Part shown: positions 31,591 to 43,692 of the stretch, piece after piece | Layout of the letters: each line of letters starts with the position of its first letter | Position numbering within the stretch: the stretch's first letter is position 1 | Assembly: GCA_965223325.1 (NCBI GenBank) | Contig: CBDCWI010000002.1 | Span: 4,128,001-4,192,000 of the forward strand | Length of the DNA: 64,000 nt | Source of the DNA: Candidatus Multivoradales bacterium | GTDB taxonomy: Bacteria > Acidobacteriota > Thermoanaerobaculia > Multivoradales > Multivoraceae | Reading direction: 5' to 3' | The notes under the pieces: generated by a model | Database searches by the model: none | Seen by the model: the letters and a program-made list of their open reading frames with translations, nothing else | What the model was told of the DNA's origin: nothing | Position numbers and translations under genes: made by a program

Positions 31591-32178
31591 TTGGCTTTGG
31601 CCACGCTGTTCGACATCGTCACTGAGAGGGTCAATGGGGCTCCTTTCGGCCACCCGCCTGAGCCCTGGTCTCGACCTTCGACCATTGCAGTAGGAGGCCT
31701 GTTGTCGATTGGATTTGCTCCGTCCACAGAACTCCTCCTGGTCACATCGCACGATGGCCGAGGACTCATCGATTGCGGGAGCGGTCGCCTAGTTGAGCGG
31801 AACCGAAACGTGACCGAGGCGTTCGAGGATCCATACTTGCTCGAGGCCGAGGGTATTGGCCCTCTAGCTGGGACGTCCGTCCGCATGGCCGGCTTCTACG
31901 GAGGAGGGCTGCCTCGGACTACTCGAGACGGCTGGTCTGTCGAGGTACTGCCCATCGACTGGCCAAGCGACACCCTCGTGCTCGTCCATCCCGGTTCTTG
32001 GATCTTCGAATCGAGGCCGGGCAGATCCACAGAGTTTGTGAAGATCGACACACACTCTGCTGAGCTACGCGCCGTCGGGTTCTCGTCGACGGGACGGTCC
32101 CTAGTCGTTGGAACCAACTCCGATGTGACCATATACAGCCGTGTGACGCCGCCGAACAACCGGATGGAGCCGACATGA
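31591..32178 (+). CDS. Cassette hypothetical protein (beta-propeller-like fragments)
   Basis: GGAGG RBS; GFAPS.ELLLV and AVGFSSTGRSLVVG repeats; stop lies inside attC. Confidence 0.75.
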   Translation: MALATLFDIVTERVNGAPFGHPPEPWSRPSTIAVGGLLSIGFAPSTELLLVTSHDGRGLIDCGSGRLVERNRNVTEAFEDPYLLEAEGIGPLAGTSVRMAGFYGGGLPRTTRDGWSVEVLPIDWPSDTLVLVHPGSWIFESRPGRSTEFVKIDTHSAELRAVGFSSTGRSLVVGTNSDVTIYSRVTPPNNRMEPT

Positions 32179-36549: not shown

Positions 36550-36632
36550 GCCGAACACACAGGTCGAGCTGACGTGAACCCGCGCTCGCTTCGCTCGCTC
36601 GGGCCCACGCAGCTCACCTTCGTCCGTTGGGC
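36550..36632 (+). repeat. attC site
   Basis: GCCGAAC...AGGTCGAGCTG...CAGCTCACCT...GTTGGGC. Confidence 0.9.
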
Positions 36633-38102: not shown

Positions 38103-38484
38103 TGCGCAGGGCACAGTCTAGGTAGCGGCCGGGGCATCGCGAGCTCAGCACGTTGCGCTATCGTCGCGGCCGATTCCGCCGAGCCGTTCGCGGGTGCCGA
38201 CCGTCACGTTCCCGCGGAAACGTTCCGGCGCCACCGCCGGCCCGCGGTGCCGCTCGGCCGGCAAGCTGTACCAGTCGGCCAAGGCCGGGCGGGCACTGGT
38301 TCCTTCTCGTAGCTGTTCAGCGGTGCAAGAATGTGCCTGTACCTGCGCCGTGCAGCCCTCGTCTCTCACCCGGCCGGCGCTACGGAGACCGGGCCGGTTC
38401 GTGGCTCGTGCCTTCTCGTCGAAGAACGCTGCGAGGATCTGAAGCGAACGTCAGCCATGGCAGCCGAAGAGAGCGCAGTACAAC
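38097..38484. other. ORF-less cassette A (388-bp body)
   Basis: Bounded by attC sites; colinear homolog at 41380..41767; no shared ORF. Confidence 0.75.
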
Positions 38485-38560
38485 AACCCGGTCAACTCGA
38501 CATGAACACGCGTCCGCTTCGCTCCCGCGCGTTCATGCGAGTTACCGTCGTCCGTTGGGA
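38478..38560 (+). repeat. attC site
   Basis: GTACAAC...AACTCGACATGAAC...GTTCATGCGAGTT...GTTGGGA. Confidence 0.9.
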
Positions 38561-38580: not shown

Positions 38581-38802
38581 ATGGCTGACGTTTCTATGTC
38601 CGAAGTTCTTGAGCTGCCGGTGGAAGAACGCCTCCGCCTAGCCGAAGCGATCTGGGACAGCATCGCTGAATTCCCCGAGTCTGTTCCTCTTGCGGACGAG
38701 CACAGAGAAGAGCTCGACCGCCGCCTTGACGCCTACTACCGTGATCCAGCGTCCTCGAGCCCCTGGCCCGATGTGAAGAAGAGGCTGCTGAGCGGGAAGT
38801 GA
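38581..38802 (+). CDS. Addiction-module antitoxin (TIGR02574-like)
   Basis: LPVEERLRLAEAIWDSI, ELDRRL, PWPDVK. Confidence 0.9.
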   Translation: MADVSMSEVLELPVEERLRLAEAIWDSIAEFPESVPLADEHREELDRRLDAYYRDPASSSPWPDVKKRLLSGK

Positions 38803-39098
38803 CACTTGCATCGATCGTCACGCCCGAAGCCGAAGCCGACCTGTCCAACGCGTACTCTTGGTACGAACGCAGGGTCGATGGTCTCGGGCTCGACTTCATC
38901 GAGGAGTTTGAGGCGTTGCTGCAGAGGATCGGTGAACGCCCGGATTTGTACCAAGTCGTGCACCGCGATATCCGTCGAGCACTACTCCGCCGGTTTCCGT
39001 ACGCCGCGTTCTACGTTCAAGAGCTCGGGGCCGCCGTCATCATCGCTGTCTTACACCAAGCACAACACCCGCGGCGCGCCCTGTCCCGTCGGCGCTAG
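38799..39098 (+). CDS. RelE/ParE-family toxin
   Basis: AEADL..AY.WYE, GLG.DF, RRFPY, IAVLH. Confidence 0.9.
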   Translation: MTLASIVTPEAEADLSNAYSWYERRVDGLGLDFIEEFEALLQRIGERPDLYQVVHRDIRRALLRRFPYAAFYVQELGAAVIIAVLHQAQHPRRALSRRR

Positions 39099-39194: not shown

Positions 39195-39661
39195 GGCCTA
39201 AACTCGAGATTGCTGGCGCGCTGCTAGCCGGCGCGTTTCTCATAGCCTCGCCTCTCTCGGCGGGCGTAGGTCTGTGTGCGACCGTGGACGACGTTCAGGT
39301 TCTTGAGGAAGCGAACGGCTCGGCCACGGCAGTGAGAGTCTCCGGAGTGCATGACATCGGCGGACCTATCGACGTCATCGTGGTGTCGCTCGAAGTGCCC
39401 GGTCGGATTGCTGCCGAAGTGCACGTCTGCGGCGGCCCCAACATCCCGACCTCGTTCGACGAGACGCTTCCTCTGCCTGTTCTGCCGAAGGGCAGCTACC
39501 AACTGGAGACCATAGTCGTAGCTTGCAACTCGGAAGACAACCGCGAGTTGTGTAGCGTTACGCCCTTCGAGATCACCGTGAGTCCTATCCCGACCATGGG
39601 TAGGGCCGGGCTTGCGGCCTTGGCGATCCTCCTTCTCTGGTCAGCCAGGAGACGGCTGTGA
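39191..39661 (+). CDS. Secreted protein with IPTL-CTERM-like sorting tail
   Basis: Signal peptide; C-terminal PIPTM-GRAGLAALAILLLW-SARRRL; GTG start inside the attC R' box. Confidence 0.72.
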   Translation: MRPKLEIAGALLAGAFLIASPLSAGVGLCATVDDVQVLEEANGSATAVRVSGVHDIGGPIDVIVVSLEVPGRIAAEVHVCGGPNIPTSFDETLPLPVLPKGSYQLETIVVACNSEDNRELCSVTPFEITVSPIPTMGRAGLAALAILLLWSARRRL

Positions 39662-39759
39662 CGGTCAGGGCAGGCACGAGAGAACACGCCAAGCGGCCGC
39701 CCAACACCTATGAGGTCCCCTGACGTCAAGCGGCAAACGTCTCCTAGCGGACGCGGTCC

Positions 39760-40181
39760 GTAACGGTTTTCGGTCAGGTTTCGAATTCTGACTTTGGTTT
39801 CAGAGTGGGTGCGAGGCGAAGCCTCTGCACCAAACACCTATTGGGCCTCTGCCCTCGCCGAAGCGACGACTGCTGGCAGAGCCAGCGGACCAGAAACACA
39901 TCGGTGCCCTCGTACCGTCCGATTCAAACCGTGCTGGTCACGCCGGTGGCGTGCCGGAGTTGGTTGCCTGGTTCGGGTGAGGGGCAGAGGTCGAGATCGA
40001 CCGAATGCTGGCAGGTGAGTGGGAAGCCTCGTCCATTCAACCGGTCTGGCTGCCGGCTCTTGTGTCTCAGGCGCGTTGGGTGTCGATGCACCTGGAGCGG
40101 GTACTCCAATGAAGCGCCAAGGATGAGATCGGGCCGTGTGGCTCCAGTTAGGCGGAGGGCTCGAGGCTTCCAACTCGGAGA
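39760..40181 (-). ncRNA. Putative bridge/seekRNA of the IS1111 element (boundaries approximate)
   Basis: Long stems 40022-31/40162-71 and 39846-62/39972-90, flanked by segments matching the attC target halves and the IS ends. Confidence 0.7.
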
Positions 40182-41225
40182 TCAAGCGTTCATGAAGGTC
40201 GGGGGGTGGAAGGCTTCGTTGTTCTTGAGCATGAAGTAGACGGCGCGGCCCAGCTTGTGGCGGAGCACGGCGTAGGCCTTGGTCTTGCCGTGCTTGCGCT
40301 TGAGGCGCTCGAGCATCTTCTTGCCGTGAGCCTGGCGCTGAGCGAAGAGCACGGCGGCCTCAGAGAAAGCCCACTTGAGGTGGTGGTTGCCGATCTTGTG
40401 GCGACCGCTGCCGGTTCGCTTGCCTGCAGACTCATGCTGCGGTCGGATCAGCCTGGCGTAGGAGGCAAACTGCTGCACGGTGGGAAACCTCGAGATGTCT
40501 TCGATCTCGTAGAGCATCGTCATGCCGAGGATAGGACCGACGCCGGGAATCGAAGTGAGGCGCGACAGTACGCTTGGATCGTGATCCTTGGCCAGAGCGA
40601 AGAGATGCCTCTCGACATCGGAGATCACCTCGTCGAAGGCCGCGATGAGTCGCTAGTTGGCGTCGATACTTTTCTTCGCTGACGGATCATCGAAGTGATG
40701 GAGGAGATCCGTGCGGTCCGACGGCCTGGCGATCCTGCCGAGCGACGTGTCGCAGTTGTACTGAGTGTTCGAGGTGCGGATGTGGACGAAGAGCTCGGCG
40801 CGCTTGCGTGTGAAGTACTGGCGCCTGCGCAGGAGATCTCTCGCGGCTCTCATCTTCTTGGGATAGGTGTAGGCCATTGGAAAGGTCCCGCCTCGTAGGA
40901 GGGCGGCGAGCTTGTAGGAATCGACCTTGTCGTTCTTGGCCTTGGCGCCGTGGATCGCGCTCATATAGAGGGCGTGGCCAAGCACGAATTCGATTCCCTC
41001 CTCGGCGCAGAGGTCGGCGAGCCAGTACCAGGAGAACATGCACTCGACACCCACGACCAGATCGTCTCGGAAGGGTTCGATGGCCTCGAGGAAGGCATCA
41101 GGCCGAGCGGGGATGTTTCGGTGGTAGATCTTCTCGCCGTCCTCGTCGAGGACGCAGAGGTACATCTTGCGAGCATGCAGATCGACACCGCAGGTGTGGC
41201 GATGACGGCGGTTGTAGAATCGCAT
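40182..41225 (-). pseudogene. IS110-family recombinase with one in-frame TAG (40653-40655)
   Basis: DEDD motifs GVDLH, GVEC, KNDKVD; SIPGVG, ESAGK, GNHHLKWAF; both ORF halves are in the same frame; AAGGAG RBS. Confidence 0.9.
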
Positions 41226-41309
41226 CGAGGTCTCCTTGAAAAGAGTTTCTGTTTTACCGCTCGCAAGCTACCGCGTGGGTAGCTCGCCAGGGGACCTCAA
41301 TGATCTTCA

Positions 41310-41385
41310 ATCGGATGGAGCCGACGAGAACCTGCGCTCGCTTCGCTCGCGGCAGTTCCCGCGGCTCTTCCTCGTTCCGTTGTAC
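41310..41385 (+). repeat. Distal part of the attC split by the IS (R'' GCCCAAC at 39699-39705)
   Basis: GGATGGAGCCG...CGCTCGCTTCGCTCGC...CGGCTCTTCC...GTTGTAC. Confidence 0.88.
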
Positions 41386-41767
41386 TGCGCAGGCACCGCC
41401 TGGGTAGCGGGCAGGGCGTCGCGAGCTCAGAACGTCGCGAGATCGTGGCGGCCGGTTCTGCCGGGCCGTTCGCTTGTGCCGGTCGCGACGTTCCCGCGGG
41501 AACGTCGCAGCGTCGCCCACCGCCCTGCGGTGCAGCTCGGCCGCTTCGGTGTGCTCGTCGGTCAGGGCCAGGCGGGCGCCGTGTTCTTCTCGCAGTCGCT
41601 CGGCGGTGCAAGAATGGGCCGGTACCTGCGCCGTGCAGCTCTCGTCTCTCACCCGGTCGGCGCTACGAAGGCCGGGTCGTTTCGTGGCTCGAGCTTTCTC
41701 GTTGAAGAACGCCGCGAGGATCGGAAGCGAACGTCAGCCAGGGCATCCGAAGAGAGCGCAGTACAAC
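41380..41767. other. ORF-less cassette B (388-bp body), diverged homolog of A
   Basis: TTGTACTGCGC...GCGCAGTACAAC ends; 24-bp perfect palindrome GCGACGTTCCCGCGGGAACGTCGC. Confidence 0.75.
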
Positions 41768-41770
41768 GAC

Positions 41771-42274
41771 GTGGCTGAGATCCGCTGCACGAAGAAGCTG
41801 CTCGGTCGGTTCCAGCAGGAGCGTGGAGTGCAAGTCAGCGGCGGCGCCGCTCTAGGCAACTGGGTCGCGAACATCGTTCCCGTCTTCGGGGGTGAGGTTG
41901 TACTTGCGCTGAACGAGCTTTACTTGCTCACGCTCGTCCTGCCCTCCGATCGGCTCGAGAGACTTCCGGAGACGGTCGGTGCCGAGGCGTCCAAGGTGCT
42001 TCTTACGGCCGGCGCTCCACCGGCCTTTGCCGGCGCGGTCCAAGCTGAGGCTGCCAGCGCCTTGATCGCGCAGAACAGAAGTCGGCACTTCGTTGGTTTG
42101 CTGAACCAGGTCTCGGCGGCCGTGCAAGAGTGGGCAGAGCTTCCGTCACCCTTCCTTATTCGCAACCAGGCTGAGATGGAGAACCGGCTCCTGGGTTGGC
42201 TCTACGGGCCACATCCGAACTACCGCCACCCCAAGGACGAGATCGCCAGAGCAATCGAGCGCTTCCGTGAGTAG
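41771..42274 (+). CDS. DUF6933-like cassette protein
   Basis: IRCTKKLL...LGNWVAN...NE..LLTLV...RHFVGLLN. Confidence 0.6.
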   Translation: MAEIRCTKKLLGRFQQERGVQVSGGAALGNWVANIVPVFGGEVVLALNELYLLTLVLPSDRLERLPETVGAEASKVLLTAGAPPAFAGAVQAEAASALIAQNRSRHFVGLLNQVSAAVQEWAELPSPFLIRNQAEMENRLLGWLYGPHPNYRHPKDEIARAIERFRE

Positions 42275-42365: not shown

Positions 42366-42443
42366 AGGCGACGCGATACAGCCACGAACCCCGGCTCGCT
42401 GCGCTCGCTCGGGCTTCGTGCTGCTGAGCCTTGTCCGCTGGGC
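42366..42443 (+). repeat. Degenerate attC directly after another attC
   Basis: Retains CACGAACCCCGG-CTCGCTGCGCTCGC-TCGGGCTTCGTG; R'' lost, R' reads GCTGGGC. Confidence 0.7.
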
Positions 42444-42454
42444 CGCACCTGGTG

Positions 42455-42475
42455 GTAGCATGGTATCCGTGCTAT
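42455..42475 (+). promoter_or_regulatory. Likely HigA operator/promoter inverted repeat
   Basis: TAGCATGG-tat-CCGTGCTA immediately upstream of higB. Confidence 0.5.
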
Positions 42476-42484
42476 CATGTTTGC

Positions 42485-42781
42485 GTGATTCGGTCGTTCG
42501 CAGACGCCGGTACTGAGGACATCTTCAACGGTCGGAACACTCGGGCCGCAAGGAAGTCGTGCCCGCGCAACCTTTGGAACGTGGCCGCGCGCAAGCTGGA
42601 ACAGATCGACGCCGCTGAGGAGTTCGACGATCTGCGAGTCCCACCGGGAAACAGGCTAGAGGCGCTGTCAAGAGACCGAAAGGGACAGTTCAGTATCCGA
42701 GTCAACTCTCAGTACCGCATCTGTTTCGTCTGGACTCCGTCCGGCCCGGACGAAGTGGAGATCGTCGACTACCACCGCTAG
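42485..42781 (+). CDS. higB: HigB toxin (RelE superfamily)
   Basis: IRSF.D..TE, DLRVPPGNRLEAL, QFSIRVNSQYRICF, EIVDYH. Confidence 0.92.
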   Translation: MIRSFADAGTEDIFNGRNTRAARKSCPRNLWNVAARKLEQIDAAEEFDDLRVPPGNRLEALSRDRKGQFSIRVNSQYRICFVWTPSGPDEVEIVDYHR

Positions 42782-43104: not shown

Positions 43105-43122
43105 GGTGGGCACGGCCCAACA

Positions 43123-43598
43123 CCGATGAGGTCCCCTGACGTCAAGCGGCAAACGTTTCCTAGCGGACGAGGTCCGTAACGGTTTTCGATCAGATTTCGA
43201 TATCTGGCTTTGGTTTCAGAGCGGGTGCGAGGCGAAGCCTCTGCACCAAACACCTATTGGGCCTCTGCCCTCGCTTTCGCGACGACTGCTGGCCTGGGCC
43301 AGCGGACCAGAAACACATCGGTGCCCTCGTACCGTCCGATTCAAACCGTGCTGGTCACGCCGGTGGCGTGCCGGAGTTGGTTGCCTGGTTCGGGTGAGGG
43401 GCAGATGTCGAGATCGACCGAATGCTGGCAGGTGAGTGGGAAGCCTCGTCCATTCAACCGGTCTGGCTGCCGGCTCAGATGTCTCAGGGCGCGTTGGGTG
43501 TCGATGCACCAGGAGCGGGTACTCCGATGAAGCGCGATGGATGAGGTCGGGCCGTGTGGCTCCAATTAGGCGGAGGGCTCGAGGCTTCCGACTCGGAG
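43123..43598 (-). mobile_element. Transposase-less IS1111 right end (bridge-RNA module) inserted in an attC
   Basis: Colinear, highly similar copy of 39707-40180, again right after GCCCAA-CA; similarity stops where the tnp stop codon would be. Confidence 0.88.
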
Positions 43599-43692
43599 TT
43601 CCACCCATCGCGGTGCTTGCTACGATGAAATCCGTGCGCTTCACGGCTTCTGACAAGACGCTTCACACGACCCGGCCGAGGCGTTAGGCCCC

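What the first reader, a model, noticed from the sequence alone, without database searches (positions are those of the whole stretch)
39699..41385. IS1111 element in an attC whose non-coding end spells out guides for the attC target and its own ends (bridge/seekRNA)
Seen: the element splits an attC at GCCGCCCAA|CA|ATCGG. On the transposase strand, the 40022-31/40162-71 stem encloses CCGCCUAAC (plus strand GTTAGGCGG, 40147-55), which matches the left target CCGCCCAAC and the attC R'' box. It also encloses CCGGUUG (plus CAACCGG, 40038-44), complementary to the right target CAAYCGG. A second stem (39846-62/39972-90) is flanked by AUAGGUG (plus CACCTAT, 39835-41), which matches the IS end CA-CCTAT, and by a weaker GAUCUC (39993-98) resembling the other end, GATCTT-CA. 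Known: IS110/IS1111 recombinases use an RNA with target- and donor-binding loops, and an IS1111-attC group exists. Inferred: this is a natural RNA-guided recombinase programmed against the attC family of this array, with a U wobble tolerating CCYAAC variants.
Basis: partly seen in the sequence, partly recalled or inferred. Interest (0 to 1): 0.85.

Follow-up and report, generated by a model that had tools for sequence, protein, structure and literature searches.

The report
Dead attC-targeting IS with guide RNA
This is a decayed copy of an IS1111-type insertion sequence sitting in an integron attC site, and its non-coding end carries conserved guide segments that match its target and one of its own ends, a mechanism already demonstrated for related elements.

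Summary
The core observation holds. A 1,603-bp IS (39707-41307 plus one CA) splits an attC at CCCAA|CA|ATCGG, and removing it restores an attC like its neighbours.

The two enclosed segments track the insertion-site flanks across homologs, so this is a target-binding loop. AUAGGUG (39835-41) tracks the IS right end.

Three points fail:
- The second stem (39846-62/39972-90) is not conserved.
- GAUCUC lies in a variable linker hairpin.
- The "U wobble" does not explain tolerance, because the 7 copies sit at CCNAAC with all four bases at N.

The real second domain is a multiloop closed by 39984-92/39820-28. It holds a second, unexplained loop of the same build as the target loop.

The element is dead: it has an in-frame TAG, and the other three copies in the genome are also broken. 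RNA-guided attC targeting by IS1111 elements (ISKpn4, ISPst6, ISPa25) was shown in 2024 (PMC11187229), so this is a new member of a known kind. It appears to use a different insertion point, according to a review table.

The parts
39695..39706 (+). Left part of the split attC: GGCCGCCCAACA, with R'' box GCCCAAC at 39699-39705 and crossover dinucleotide CA at 39705-39706.
   Evidence: Seven copies in this genome all abut ..NAA|CA. Intact attCs of the same array begin CCGCCGAACA.
39707..39729 (-). IS right end (IS sense). The tip is TAGG (39707-10), the subterminal inverted repeat is GGGGACCTCA (39711-20), and TTGACG (39724-29) is a possible -35 of a circle-junction promoter.
   Evidence: TTGAC is invariant in the 29 aligned homologs. 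The promoter role is inferred from what is reported for ISEc11 (cited in PMC11187229).
39820..39828 (-). 3' arm of the long-range stem that closes the second RNA domain. It pairs with 39984-39992.
   Evidence: 9 pairs, 75.5% paired against 67.4% shuffled (0/500) and 29-41% slid. Covariation score 0.292 against 0.156.
39829..39845 (-). Right-end guide, RNA CCCAAUAGGUGUUUGGU. AUAGG (39837-41) copies the IS right tip, UG (39835-36) is the core, and UU (39833-34) matches the first two target bases (handshake-like).
   Evidence: Against the right end it scores 4.96/6 versus 3.91 shuffled (0 of 4000 shuffles). The two bases before the core are identical to the right end in 25 of 26 homologs.
39846..39889 (-). 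Variable hairpin region.
Evidence: One search shows length and sequence are not conserved.
39890..39906 (-). Conserved single-stranded motif CACCGAUGUGUUUCUGG. It is the best, but weak, candidate for a guide against the IS left end.
   Evidence: Searches show sequence conservation. One search shows it is the best anti-left-end anchor in the whole non-coding end, 4.32/8 against 4.28 shuffled (p 0.44), so there is no covariation.
39907..39984 (-). Loop 2, a second internal-loop module. Stem arms are 39970-84 and 39907-21, the 5' strand is AGGCAACCAAC (39959-69), the inner hairpin is 39936-58, and the 3' strand is AGCACGGUUUGAAU (39922-35). Its role is unknown.
   Evidence: 11 pairs, 91.2% paired against 75.0% shuffled (0/500) and 27-57% slid; its strands do not track the flanks or the IS ends.
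39984..39992 (-). 5' arm of the long-range stem of domain 2 (RNA GACCUCUGC).
39989..40002 (-).
   Evidence: The linker between the two domains varies in length and sequence among homologs.
40022..40171 (-). Target-binding loop. The outer stem is 40162-71/40022-31. The 5' strand is CUCCGCCUAAC (40147-57). The 3' strand is GACCGGUUG (40038-46, with core UG at 40038-39), followed by AA (40036-37), which matches the first two bases of the IS left end.
   Evidence: for stem covariation. for guides tracking RT and LT; the second base after the core equals left-end position 2 in 27 of 29 homologs.
40182..41225 (-). Transposase gene, 347 codons, with an in-frame TAG at 40653-40655.
   Evidence: Copies L002 and L003 read Q (glutamine) at that residue. 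S266, D15, E61, D99 and D102 are invariant in an alignment of 8 sequences.
41290..41309 (-). IS left end. The subterminal inverted repeat is 41290-99, the tip AAGATCAT is 41300-07, and the core CA is 41308-09.
41310..41385 (+). Right part of the split attC, from ATCGGATGGAGCCG to R' GTTGTAC at 41379-85.
   Evidence: Positions 41318-75 align in register with attCs at 36566, 37228, 38494 and 42294.
43115..43601 (-). A second, solo copy of the whole non-coding end (93-98% identical in three pieces), without transposase gene or left end, also abutting an attC R'' box.

Best explanation
The stretch is a dead copy of an IS1111-type insertion sequence. It belongs to a large, mostly environmental clade that inserts into integron attC sites at the CA that ends the R'' box (..YAA|CA|A..), with the transposase gene antisense to the cassettes.

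The proposed working of an active copy is as follows. It would excise as a circle, and the joined ends may create a promoter. The 475-nt region downstream of the transposase gene would be transcribed into a seekRNA/bridge RNA with two domains.

- Domain 1 is a target-binding internal loop. Its 5' strand (CUCCGCCUAAC) pairs with the IS-sense top strand to the right of the core, which is the complement of the R'' box and the bases before it. Its 3' strand (GACCGGUUG) pairs with the bottom strand to the left of the core. The next two bases (AA) match the start of the IS left end, like the handshake guides of IS621.
- Domain 2 is a multiloop closed by a long-range stem. It exposes AAUAGGUG, a copy of the IS right tip plus core, followed by UU, which matches the first target bases. 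It also carries a second, sequence-conserved internal loop of unknown role.

The DEDD/Ser recombinase would then exchange strands at the CA/TG dinucleotide.

Shown here: the anatomy, the conservation, the stem covariation, and the tracking between guides and flanks or ends.

Inferred: that the RNA is made, that it binds the protein, and that it directs recombination. This rests on analogy with ISKpn4, ISPst6, ISEc11 and IS621.
For: - Transposase family: Pfam; IS621 transposase, E 2.7e-8, with the catalytic serine aligned; invariant D15, E61, D99, D102, S266 in 8 sequences.
- Ends and target. In one search, 21 of the 22 elements with both ends found had a readable right flank, and 20 of those 21 begin with TT, that is GTT after the core G.
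- Relatives: one search found 103 relatives among 192 candidate stretches and kept 80, at 46-74% identity across many phyla. One search found 8000 of 8000 scored candidates at E<=1e-20.
- Target-loop stem: 81.1% paired against 44.5% shuffled (0/500) and 37-42% slid. All 9 pairs show changes on both sides.
- Guides against flanks. The 5' strand against the right target scores 4.10/9 versus 3.33 (n=31, 0 of 4000 shuffles), and 2.0-2.6 when the register is shifted. The 3' strand against the left target scores 3.74/9 versus 2.93 (n=34, 0 of 4000). The same strands against the IS ends give no signal (p 0.92 and 0.70).
- Blind register scan: one search recovers the same three anchors.
- Right-end guide.
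- Handshake-like base: (27 of 29).
- Domain 2 stems.
- Literature: PMC11187229 (seekRNAs of the attC-targeting ISKpn4, ISPst6 and ISPa25, purified with the transposase). PMC11208160 (bridge RNA predicted in 93% of IS1111 elements, with donor-binding bases often in a multiloop). PMC13626964 (handshake guides).
Against: - No RNA data exist. No listed public run is on record as RNA, and Rfam has no match at E<=10.
- The excess of guide-to-flank matches is modest, about 0.8 of 9 positions. The shuffles ignore relatedness and shared base composition of elements and hosts. Only the register-shift control addresses this.
- No segment tracking the IS left end was found.
- Loop 2 is unexplained.
- Among the 7 copies in this genome, guide differences do not follow their own sites.
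- This copy, L002, L003 and L004 are all broken, so function cannot be tested on them as they stand.
Confidence: 0.82

Rival explanations
1. One reading: two simple internal loops, with the donor loop formed by stem 39846-62/39972-90 and flanked by GAUCUC (left-end guide) and AUAGGUG (right-end guide).
For: The stem can form in this copy (-25 kcal/mol with an artificial linker). It also appears in the single-sequence minimum-energy fold. AUAGGUG does match and track the right end.
Against:: the stem is 45.6% paired in 29 homologs against 43.6% shuffled, and slid controls reach 45.5%. The 5' arm instead takes part in two covarying stems. GAUCUC lies in a non-conserved linker hairpin and lacks one U relative to the left end. 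The register scan found no anti-left-end anchor there.
Confidence: 0.07
2. The internal AUAGG-UG-UU motif acts as DNA, as an internal pseudo right end used by the recombinase, rather than as an RNA guide. The stretch from there to the true end would be a separable module, as in ISPpu9 with its ssr9 MITE.
For: In L013, L036 and L039 the right end is followed by a second copy of exactly the stretch from just after the motif to the right end. This would result from recombination between the right junction and the motif. Modular circles are described for ISPpu9 (PMC12288879, abstract and first part of the discussion read).
Against: The motif sits in a conserved multiloop closed by a covarying stem. 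It carries UU in the handshake position, parallel to the target loop's UG+AA/AU. No left-end-like box follows it, unlike the A' box of ISPpu9. Both roles could coexist.
Confidence: 0.12
3. Loop 2 is the donor-binding loop proper, or a second target loop, and the true pairing register was missed.
For: It has the same build as the target loop and a covarying stem. Its 5' strand against the left end gives p 0.045. One column pairs with left-end position 3 in 22 of 25 homologs.
Against: One search gives no signal against the right target, left target or right end (p 0.13, 0.20, 0.89). The single covarying column rests on about two independent changes. The loop strands are conserved in sequence and not variable like guides.
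Confidence: 0.15
4. The matches are chance, or a captured attC fragment inside the IS, and no RNA is involved.
For: The matched words are short (7-9 nt) in a GC-rich genome. A 17-mer built from the guides is not enriched genome-wide.
Against: The same loop architecture, with covarying stems, is kept across 33 homologs at 46-74% protein identity in many phyla. In-register matches exceed shifted and shuffled ones. The mechanism has been demonstrated experimentally in related elements (PMC11187229).
Confidence: 0.02

Closest known systems
ISKpn4 / ISPst6 / ISPa25 (IS1111 family elements that target attC, with experimentally shown seekRNAs; PMC11187229)
   Same: - DEDD transposase of about 340 aa.
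- Long non-coding region downstream of the gene.
- Subterminal inverted repeats.
- Insertion at one end of attC, in the same orientation relative to the R'' box. The published targets end in GTTAG in IS orientation, as here.
- An RNA loop with the top-strand match 5' of the bottom-strand match.
   Different: - Insertion point. A review table (PMC13604230) gives CTTGAA*CGAATTGTTAG, which is CTAACAATTCG|TTCAAG in attC orientation. Here it is CTAA|CA|A, inside the R'' box, about 6-8 bp away counted from the printed sequences. The published point was not checked on sequence here.
- Non-coding end. Here it is 475 nt with a 150-nt target loop and a second domain. The reported seekRNAs are 82-86 nt (short form) and 148-151 nt (long form).
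IS621 bridge RNA (IS110 group; PMC11208160, PMC13626964)
   Same: - Each loop strand reads a different DNA strand on either side of a 2-nt core.
- The dinucleotide after the core in a loop's 3' strand matches the other substrate (handshake guides).
- The recombinase is related.
   Different: - The RNA lies downstream of the gene, not upstream.
- The strand order is reversed.
- The IS ends carry 10-nt subterminal repeats.
- Donor-matching bases sit in a multiloop, not a simple internal loop.
- No guide for the left end was found.
ISPpu9 with its ssr9 MITE (PMC12288879)
   Same: An IS110-family element with an end-like box repeated inside or beside the element, and solo or tandem copies of the RNA-bearing part in genomes.
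   Different: Here the solo piece (43115-43601) lacks a left end and looks like a deletion remnant. The internal motif has no left-end-like partner.

Membership tests
IS110-family DEDD/Ser recombinase (bridge recombinase) | N-terminal RuvC-like DEDD domain and C-terminal Tnp domain | tested here: met
   PF01548 at 54.9 bits (cut-off 29) and PF02371 at 74.5 bits (cut-off 21.3). IS621 transposase at E 2.7e-8.
IS110-family DEDD/Ser recombinase (bridge recombinase) | Conserved acidic residues and catalytic serine | tested here: met
   D15, E61, D99, D102 and S266 are invariant in 8 sequences. S266 aligns with the serine of the ES-G motif of IS621. Which acidic residues form the DEDD tetrad was not assigned by structure.
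IS110-family DEDD/Ser recombinase (bridge recombinase) | Intact reading frame | tested here: not met
   TAG at 40653-55. L002 and L003 lose the frame and L004 is truncated.
IS1111 group | Longer non-coding region downstream of the transposase gene | tested here: met
   475 nt downstream against 82 nt upstream.
IS1111 group | Subterminal inverted repeats of 7-17 bp set back from the tips | tested here: met
   A 10-bp repeat lies 4 nt from the right tip and 8 nt from the left tip.
IS1111 group | Transposase falls in the IS1111 clade of ISfinder entries | not testable with these tools
   No ISfinder sequences were at hand. Enterobacterial plasmid IS110-family genes, including one named ISEc11 family, are only 21-23% identical.
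IS1111-attC group (ISPst6, ISKpn4, ISPa21, ISPa25) | Inserted in attC in one fixed orientation | tested here: met
IS1111-attC group (ISPst6, ISKpn4, ISPa21, ISPa25) | Same insertion point within attC as the named members | tested here: not met
   Here the point is CTAA|CA|A. The named members use ..AATTCG|TTCAAG.. according to Table 1 of PMC13604230. That is a secondary source, and the founding papers are not held.
IS1111-attC group (ISPst6, ISKpn4, ISPa21, ISPa25) | Transposase related to the named members (46-86% among them) | not tested
No Klebsiella or Pseudomonas plasmid hit reached 40% identity.
seekRNA / bridge RNA | Loop with two segments pairing with opposite strands on either side of the insertion point | tested here: met
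seekRNA / bridge RNA | Conserved secondary structure with covariation | tested here: met
seekRNA / bridge RNA | RNA is made and binds the transposase | not testable with these tools
   No RNA holder is listed. Rfam gives no match.
seekRNA / bridge RNA | Donor-binding segments for both IS ends | tested here: inconclusive
   The right end is matched. For the left end, the best candidate scores 4.32/8 with no covariation.

The most novel reading that the evidence does not exclude
This clade is an attC-targeting lineage separate from the ISKpn4 type. It cuts at the CA that ends the R'' box itself. Its RNA carries two tandem loops of the target-loop build. The second loop, conserved in sequence (..CUAAC / UUUUGAAU), would recognise the invariant core of attC sites, or hold a second recombinase dimer, so that one element can roam a whole diverse attC array with only loose matches in the first loop.
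Probability: 0.15. Interest if true: 0.6.

Novelty: new member of a known kind. Interest (0 to 1): 0.35.

Why it matters
RNA-guided recombinases of the IS110/IS1111 families are being developed as genome-editing tools, and natural variety in their RNAs is useful raw material.

This clade is very large in metagenomes: 8000 of 8000 scored candidates reached E<=1e-20. It gives a comparative picture of an IS1111-type RNA that includes:
- a target loop with handshake-like bases;
- a right-end guide inside a multiloop;
- an extra conserved loop of unknown role.

For integron biology, it shows that chromosomal attC arrays in environmental bacteria are colonised, and littered with dead copies, by elements aimed at the R'' box. 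That should block cassette excision at those sites.

The principle itself is already established, so the finding is confirmatory rather than surprising.

Tried and rejected
- Rfam scan of 39500-41500 at E<=10: 0 matches.
- Per-column covariation between RNA alignment columns and flank or end positions. Many spurious low-p pairs arose from relatedness. I kept only the handshake column, the base before UAAC, and the right-end motif, and otherwise relied on in-register tests.
- Search for a left-end guide.
- Loop 2 as donor or target loop: no clear signal.
- Genome-wide count of 17-mers implied by loop 1 and loop 2: at chance level for both. One loop 1 hit is the attC at window 32149.
- My first crude attC finder returned nothing because the thresholds were too strict. 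It was replaced by a pattern (5 on the + strand, 0 on the - strand) and by the repeat finder.
- Public runs: no RNA holder is listed. Contigs of 4 runs laid on 39300-41800 are short and break at the repeat. No joint across 39706/41310 (empty site) and no circle junction was listed. Loose ends at 39695-97 and 41310 carry the flanks of the other copies. Several contigs end at 40654.
- Hunt for a named ISKpn4 or ISPa21 copy in plasmids. The hits inspected were not in integrons, so I gave up.
- Tetu & Holmes 2008 is not held. It and Post & Hall 2009, which I did not look up, are cited only from reference lists and recall.
- Supplementary figures of PMC11187229 (Suppl. Fig. 7) and tables of PMC11208160 (Suppl. 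Table 5) could show whether this clade or its RNA is already catalogued. Supplements were closed and I did not see them.
- Rows dropped before counts:
  - Alignment A2 used 32 of 34 anchored loci plus the window. L015 was dropped as a near-duplicate of L016, and L025 as mis-anchored.
  - Alignment A3 used 28 of 33 loci plus the window. L018 was dropped as the same IS as L016. L040, L042, L054 and L055 were dropped for large insertions or doubtful anchoring.
  - The right-target tests left out L013, L036 and L039, whose right end is followed by a duplicated tail and not by a target.
Full report
**What is there**

On the minus strand, 41225-40182 encodes a 347-codon protein with one in-frame TAG at 40653-55. 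Its two halves match Pfam DEDD_Tnp_IS110 (54.9 bits) and Transposase_20 (74.5 bits). Read through with X at the stop, the protein finds the IS621 transposase among solved structures (E 2.7e-8), with its serine aligned to that of the IS621 ES-G motif. In an alignment with 7 relatives, D15, E61, D99, D102 and S266 are invariant.

The element runs from 39707 to 41307. A CA dinucleotide sits on each side (39705-06 and 41308-09). A 10-bp subterminal inverted repeat lies 4 nt from one tip and 8 nt from the other (39711-20 and 41290-99). The long non-coding part (475 nt) lies downstream of the gene. These are the marks of the IS1111 type as described in PMC11187229 (section 6 read).

**The target is an attC**

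The left flank ends GCCGCCCAA|CA. The right flank starts ATCGGATGGAGCCG and ends in GTTGTAC at 41379-85. The right half aligns in register with four other 58-nt attC cores of the array. A pattern for R''...R' finds 5 intact sites on the + strand of the window and none on the - strand.

The flanks joined in a script align without a gap across the junction to the intact site at 32149 (27 nt, 92.6%). The genome has an integron integrase (TIGR02249, 422.7 bits against a cut-off of 265), but it lies 320 kb away. The window's array is therefore a cluster of attC sites with no integrase nearby.

**Copies in the genome**

The genome holds three further copies with a transposase gene: L002 at 94%, L003 at 93%, and L004, which is truncated. 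It also holds three pieces of the non-coding end alone: L005 (window 43115-43601, the whole 485 nt), L006 and L007.

All seven right-end junctions abut ..NAA|CA. The base N in CCNAAC is C, G, T, A, C, A, G. L002 and L003 read glutamine where the window has TAG, but both lose the frame further on. No copy is intact.

**Relatives elsewhere**

A scan of one genome per species gave 103 relatives among 192 candidate stretches, of which 80 were kept. They are 46-74% identical and come from Acidobacteriota, Desulfobacterota, Planctomycetota, Gammaproteobacteria and others. The protein database gave 8000 of 8000 scored candidates at E<=1e-20, almost all unnamed.

Both ends were found through the inverted repeat in 22 elements. 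Of the 21 with a readable right flank, 20 are followed by TT, that is GTT after the core G, which is the complement of the R'' box. The clade as a whole therefore aims at attC.

**The target loop**

Downstream of the stop codon, all relatives share one design:
- an outer stem;
- AGCC, then a variable stretch ending in UAAC, then UGG;
- variable hairpins;
- AGCC, then a variable stretch ending in UUG, then A(U/A)U(G/A)G;
- the return arm of the stem.

In 33 sequences the 9-bp stem is 81.1% paired, against 44.5% after shuffling (0 of 500 shuffles as high) and 37-42% when slid. All 9 pairs show changes on both sides.

Beyond the invariant bases, the 5' strand pairs in register with the top strand right of the core. 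The score is 4.10 of 9 against 3.33 for shuffled partners (n=31, 0 of 4000 shuffles) and 2.0-2.6 in shifted registers. The 3' strand matches the left flank at 3.74 against 2.93 (n=34, 0 of 4000). The same strands show nothing against the IS ends. A blind scan of every alignment column as anchor recovers the same two places.

The order of the matches, with the top-strand match 5', is the one reported for IS1111 seekRNAs (PMC11187229).

The second base after the core in the 3' strand equals position 2 of the IS left end in 27 of 29 homologs. Where the left end begins AA the RNA has AA (3 of 3), but two elements whose left end begins AT also carry AA; elsewhere both read AU/AT. This parallels the handshake guides of IS621 (PMC13626964, passages read).

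**The second domain**

In 29 homologs it is 45.6% paired against 43.6% shuffled, and slid versions reach 45.5%. The alignment is poor in that variable part.

The conserved CUGCCCCUCACCCGA takes part in two other helices instead:
- A long-range stem, 39984-92 with 39820-28: 75.5% paired against 67.4% shuffled (0/500), slid 29-41%.
- The stem of a second internal loop, 39970-84 with 39907-21: 91.2% against 75.0% (0/500), slid 27-57%.

Inside the multiloop lies CCCAAUAGGUGUUUGG. The bases before its UG copy the right tip of the same element. TAGG, TAAG, TATG, CATG and TAGA each recur in both places. The score is 4.96 of 6 against 3.91 (0 of 4000 shuffles), and the two bases before the core agree in 25 of 26 homologs. 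The UU after the UG matches the first two target bases. This fits the remark that IS1111 donor-binding bases often sit in a multiloop (PMC11208160).

No segment tracks the left end. The best candidate is GUGUUUC within 39890-39906, which scores 4.32 of 8 with no covariation.

**The unexplained loop**

Loop 2 repeats the build of the target loop..CUAAC UGG, then a hairpin, then AGCC..UUUUGAAU. Its strands are conserved in sequence rather than variable, and they do not track the flanks or ends (p 0.13, 0.20, 0.045, 0.89). It could be a scaffold for a second recombinase dimer, a binder of the invariant attC core, or a duplicated target loop. I cannot tell which.

**Comparison with what is known**

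RNA-guided attC targeting by IS1111 elements is published. ISKpn4 and ISPst6 seekRNAs co-purify with their transposases, and ISPa25 has the same matches (PMC11187229).

A review table (PMC13604230) gives their target as CGGCTTGAA*CGAATTGTTAG. That is the same end of attC and the same orientation, but the insertion point lies about 6-8 bp, counted from the printed sequences, from the CA used here. I could not check this on their sequences, nor measure protein relatedness. Enterobacterial plasmid IS110-family genes are only 21-23% identical.

**Verdict**

The donor-loop anatomy is wrong in detail. The element is a fossil, and the principle is known. Interest is moderate. The value lies in the comparative anatomy of the RNA of a very large environmental clade and in the unexplained second loop.

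Noticed in passing
window 43115-43601: A solo copy of the whole non-coding end (three pieces at 93-98% identity), with no transposase gene and no left end. It abuts GGCCCAA|CA of another attC. Homology stops 2-3 nt from where the stop codon would be.
   Followed up: partly
L013, L036, L039 (relatives in other genomes), downstream of the IS right end: The right end is followed by a second copy of the stretch from just after the internal right-end-like motif to the right end, with the second right end 142-206 nt further on. This looks as if the right junction and the internal motif had recombined.
   Followed up: partly
G000:C2:3807261-3808190 (L094), against the window at C2:4128001-4192000: The only integron integrase above the family cut-off lies 320 kb from the window. 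L002, L004 and L007 lie 12-22 kb from it. The window, L003 (C2:4.40 Mb) and L006 (contig C1) lie in attC clusters far from it.
   Followed up: partly
window 38110-38487 and 41392-41770: A stretch of about 380 bp is duplicated (78-84% identity) on either side of the IS-bearing cassette. Contigs of public runs also join 41767 back to 41318.
   Followed up: no
window 38581-39098 and 42431-42781: Small paired reading frames on the + strand look like toxin-antitoxin cassettes, typical cargo of chromosomal attC arrays. This is judged by eye from the translations and was not searched.
   Followed up: no
window 40654: In all four public runs laid, a contig ends exactly at 40654, inside the TAG codon. 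This is as expected if copies that differ there (TAG against CAG) break the assembly graph.
   Followed up: no
L048 (relative): This copy lacks the internal right-end-matching motif and the hairpins before it (a deletion in alignment A3), although its ends are intact.
   Followed up: no
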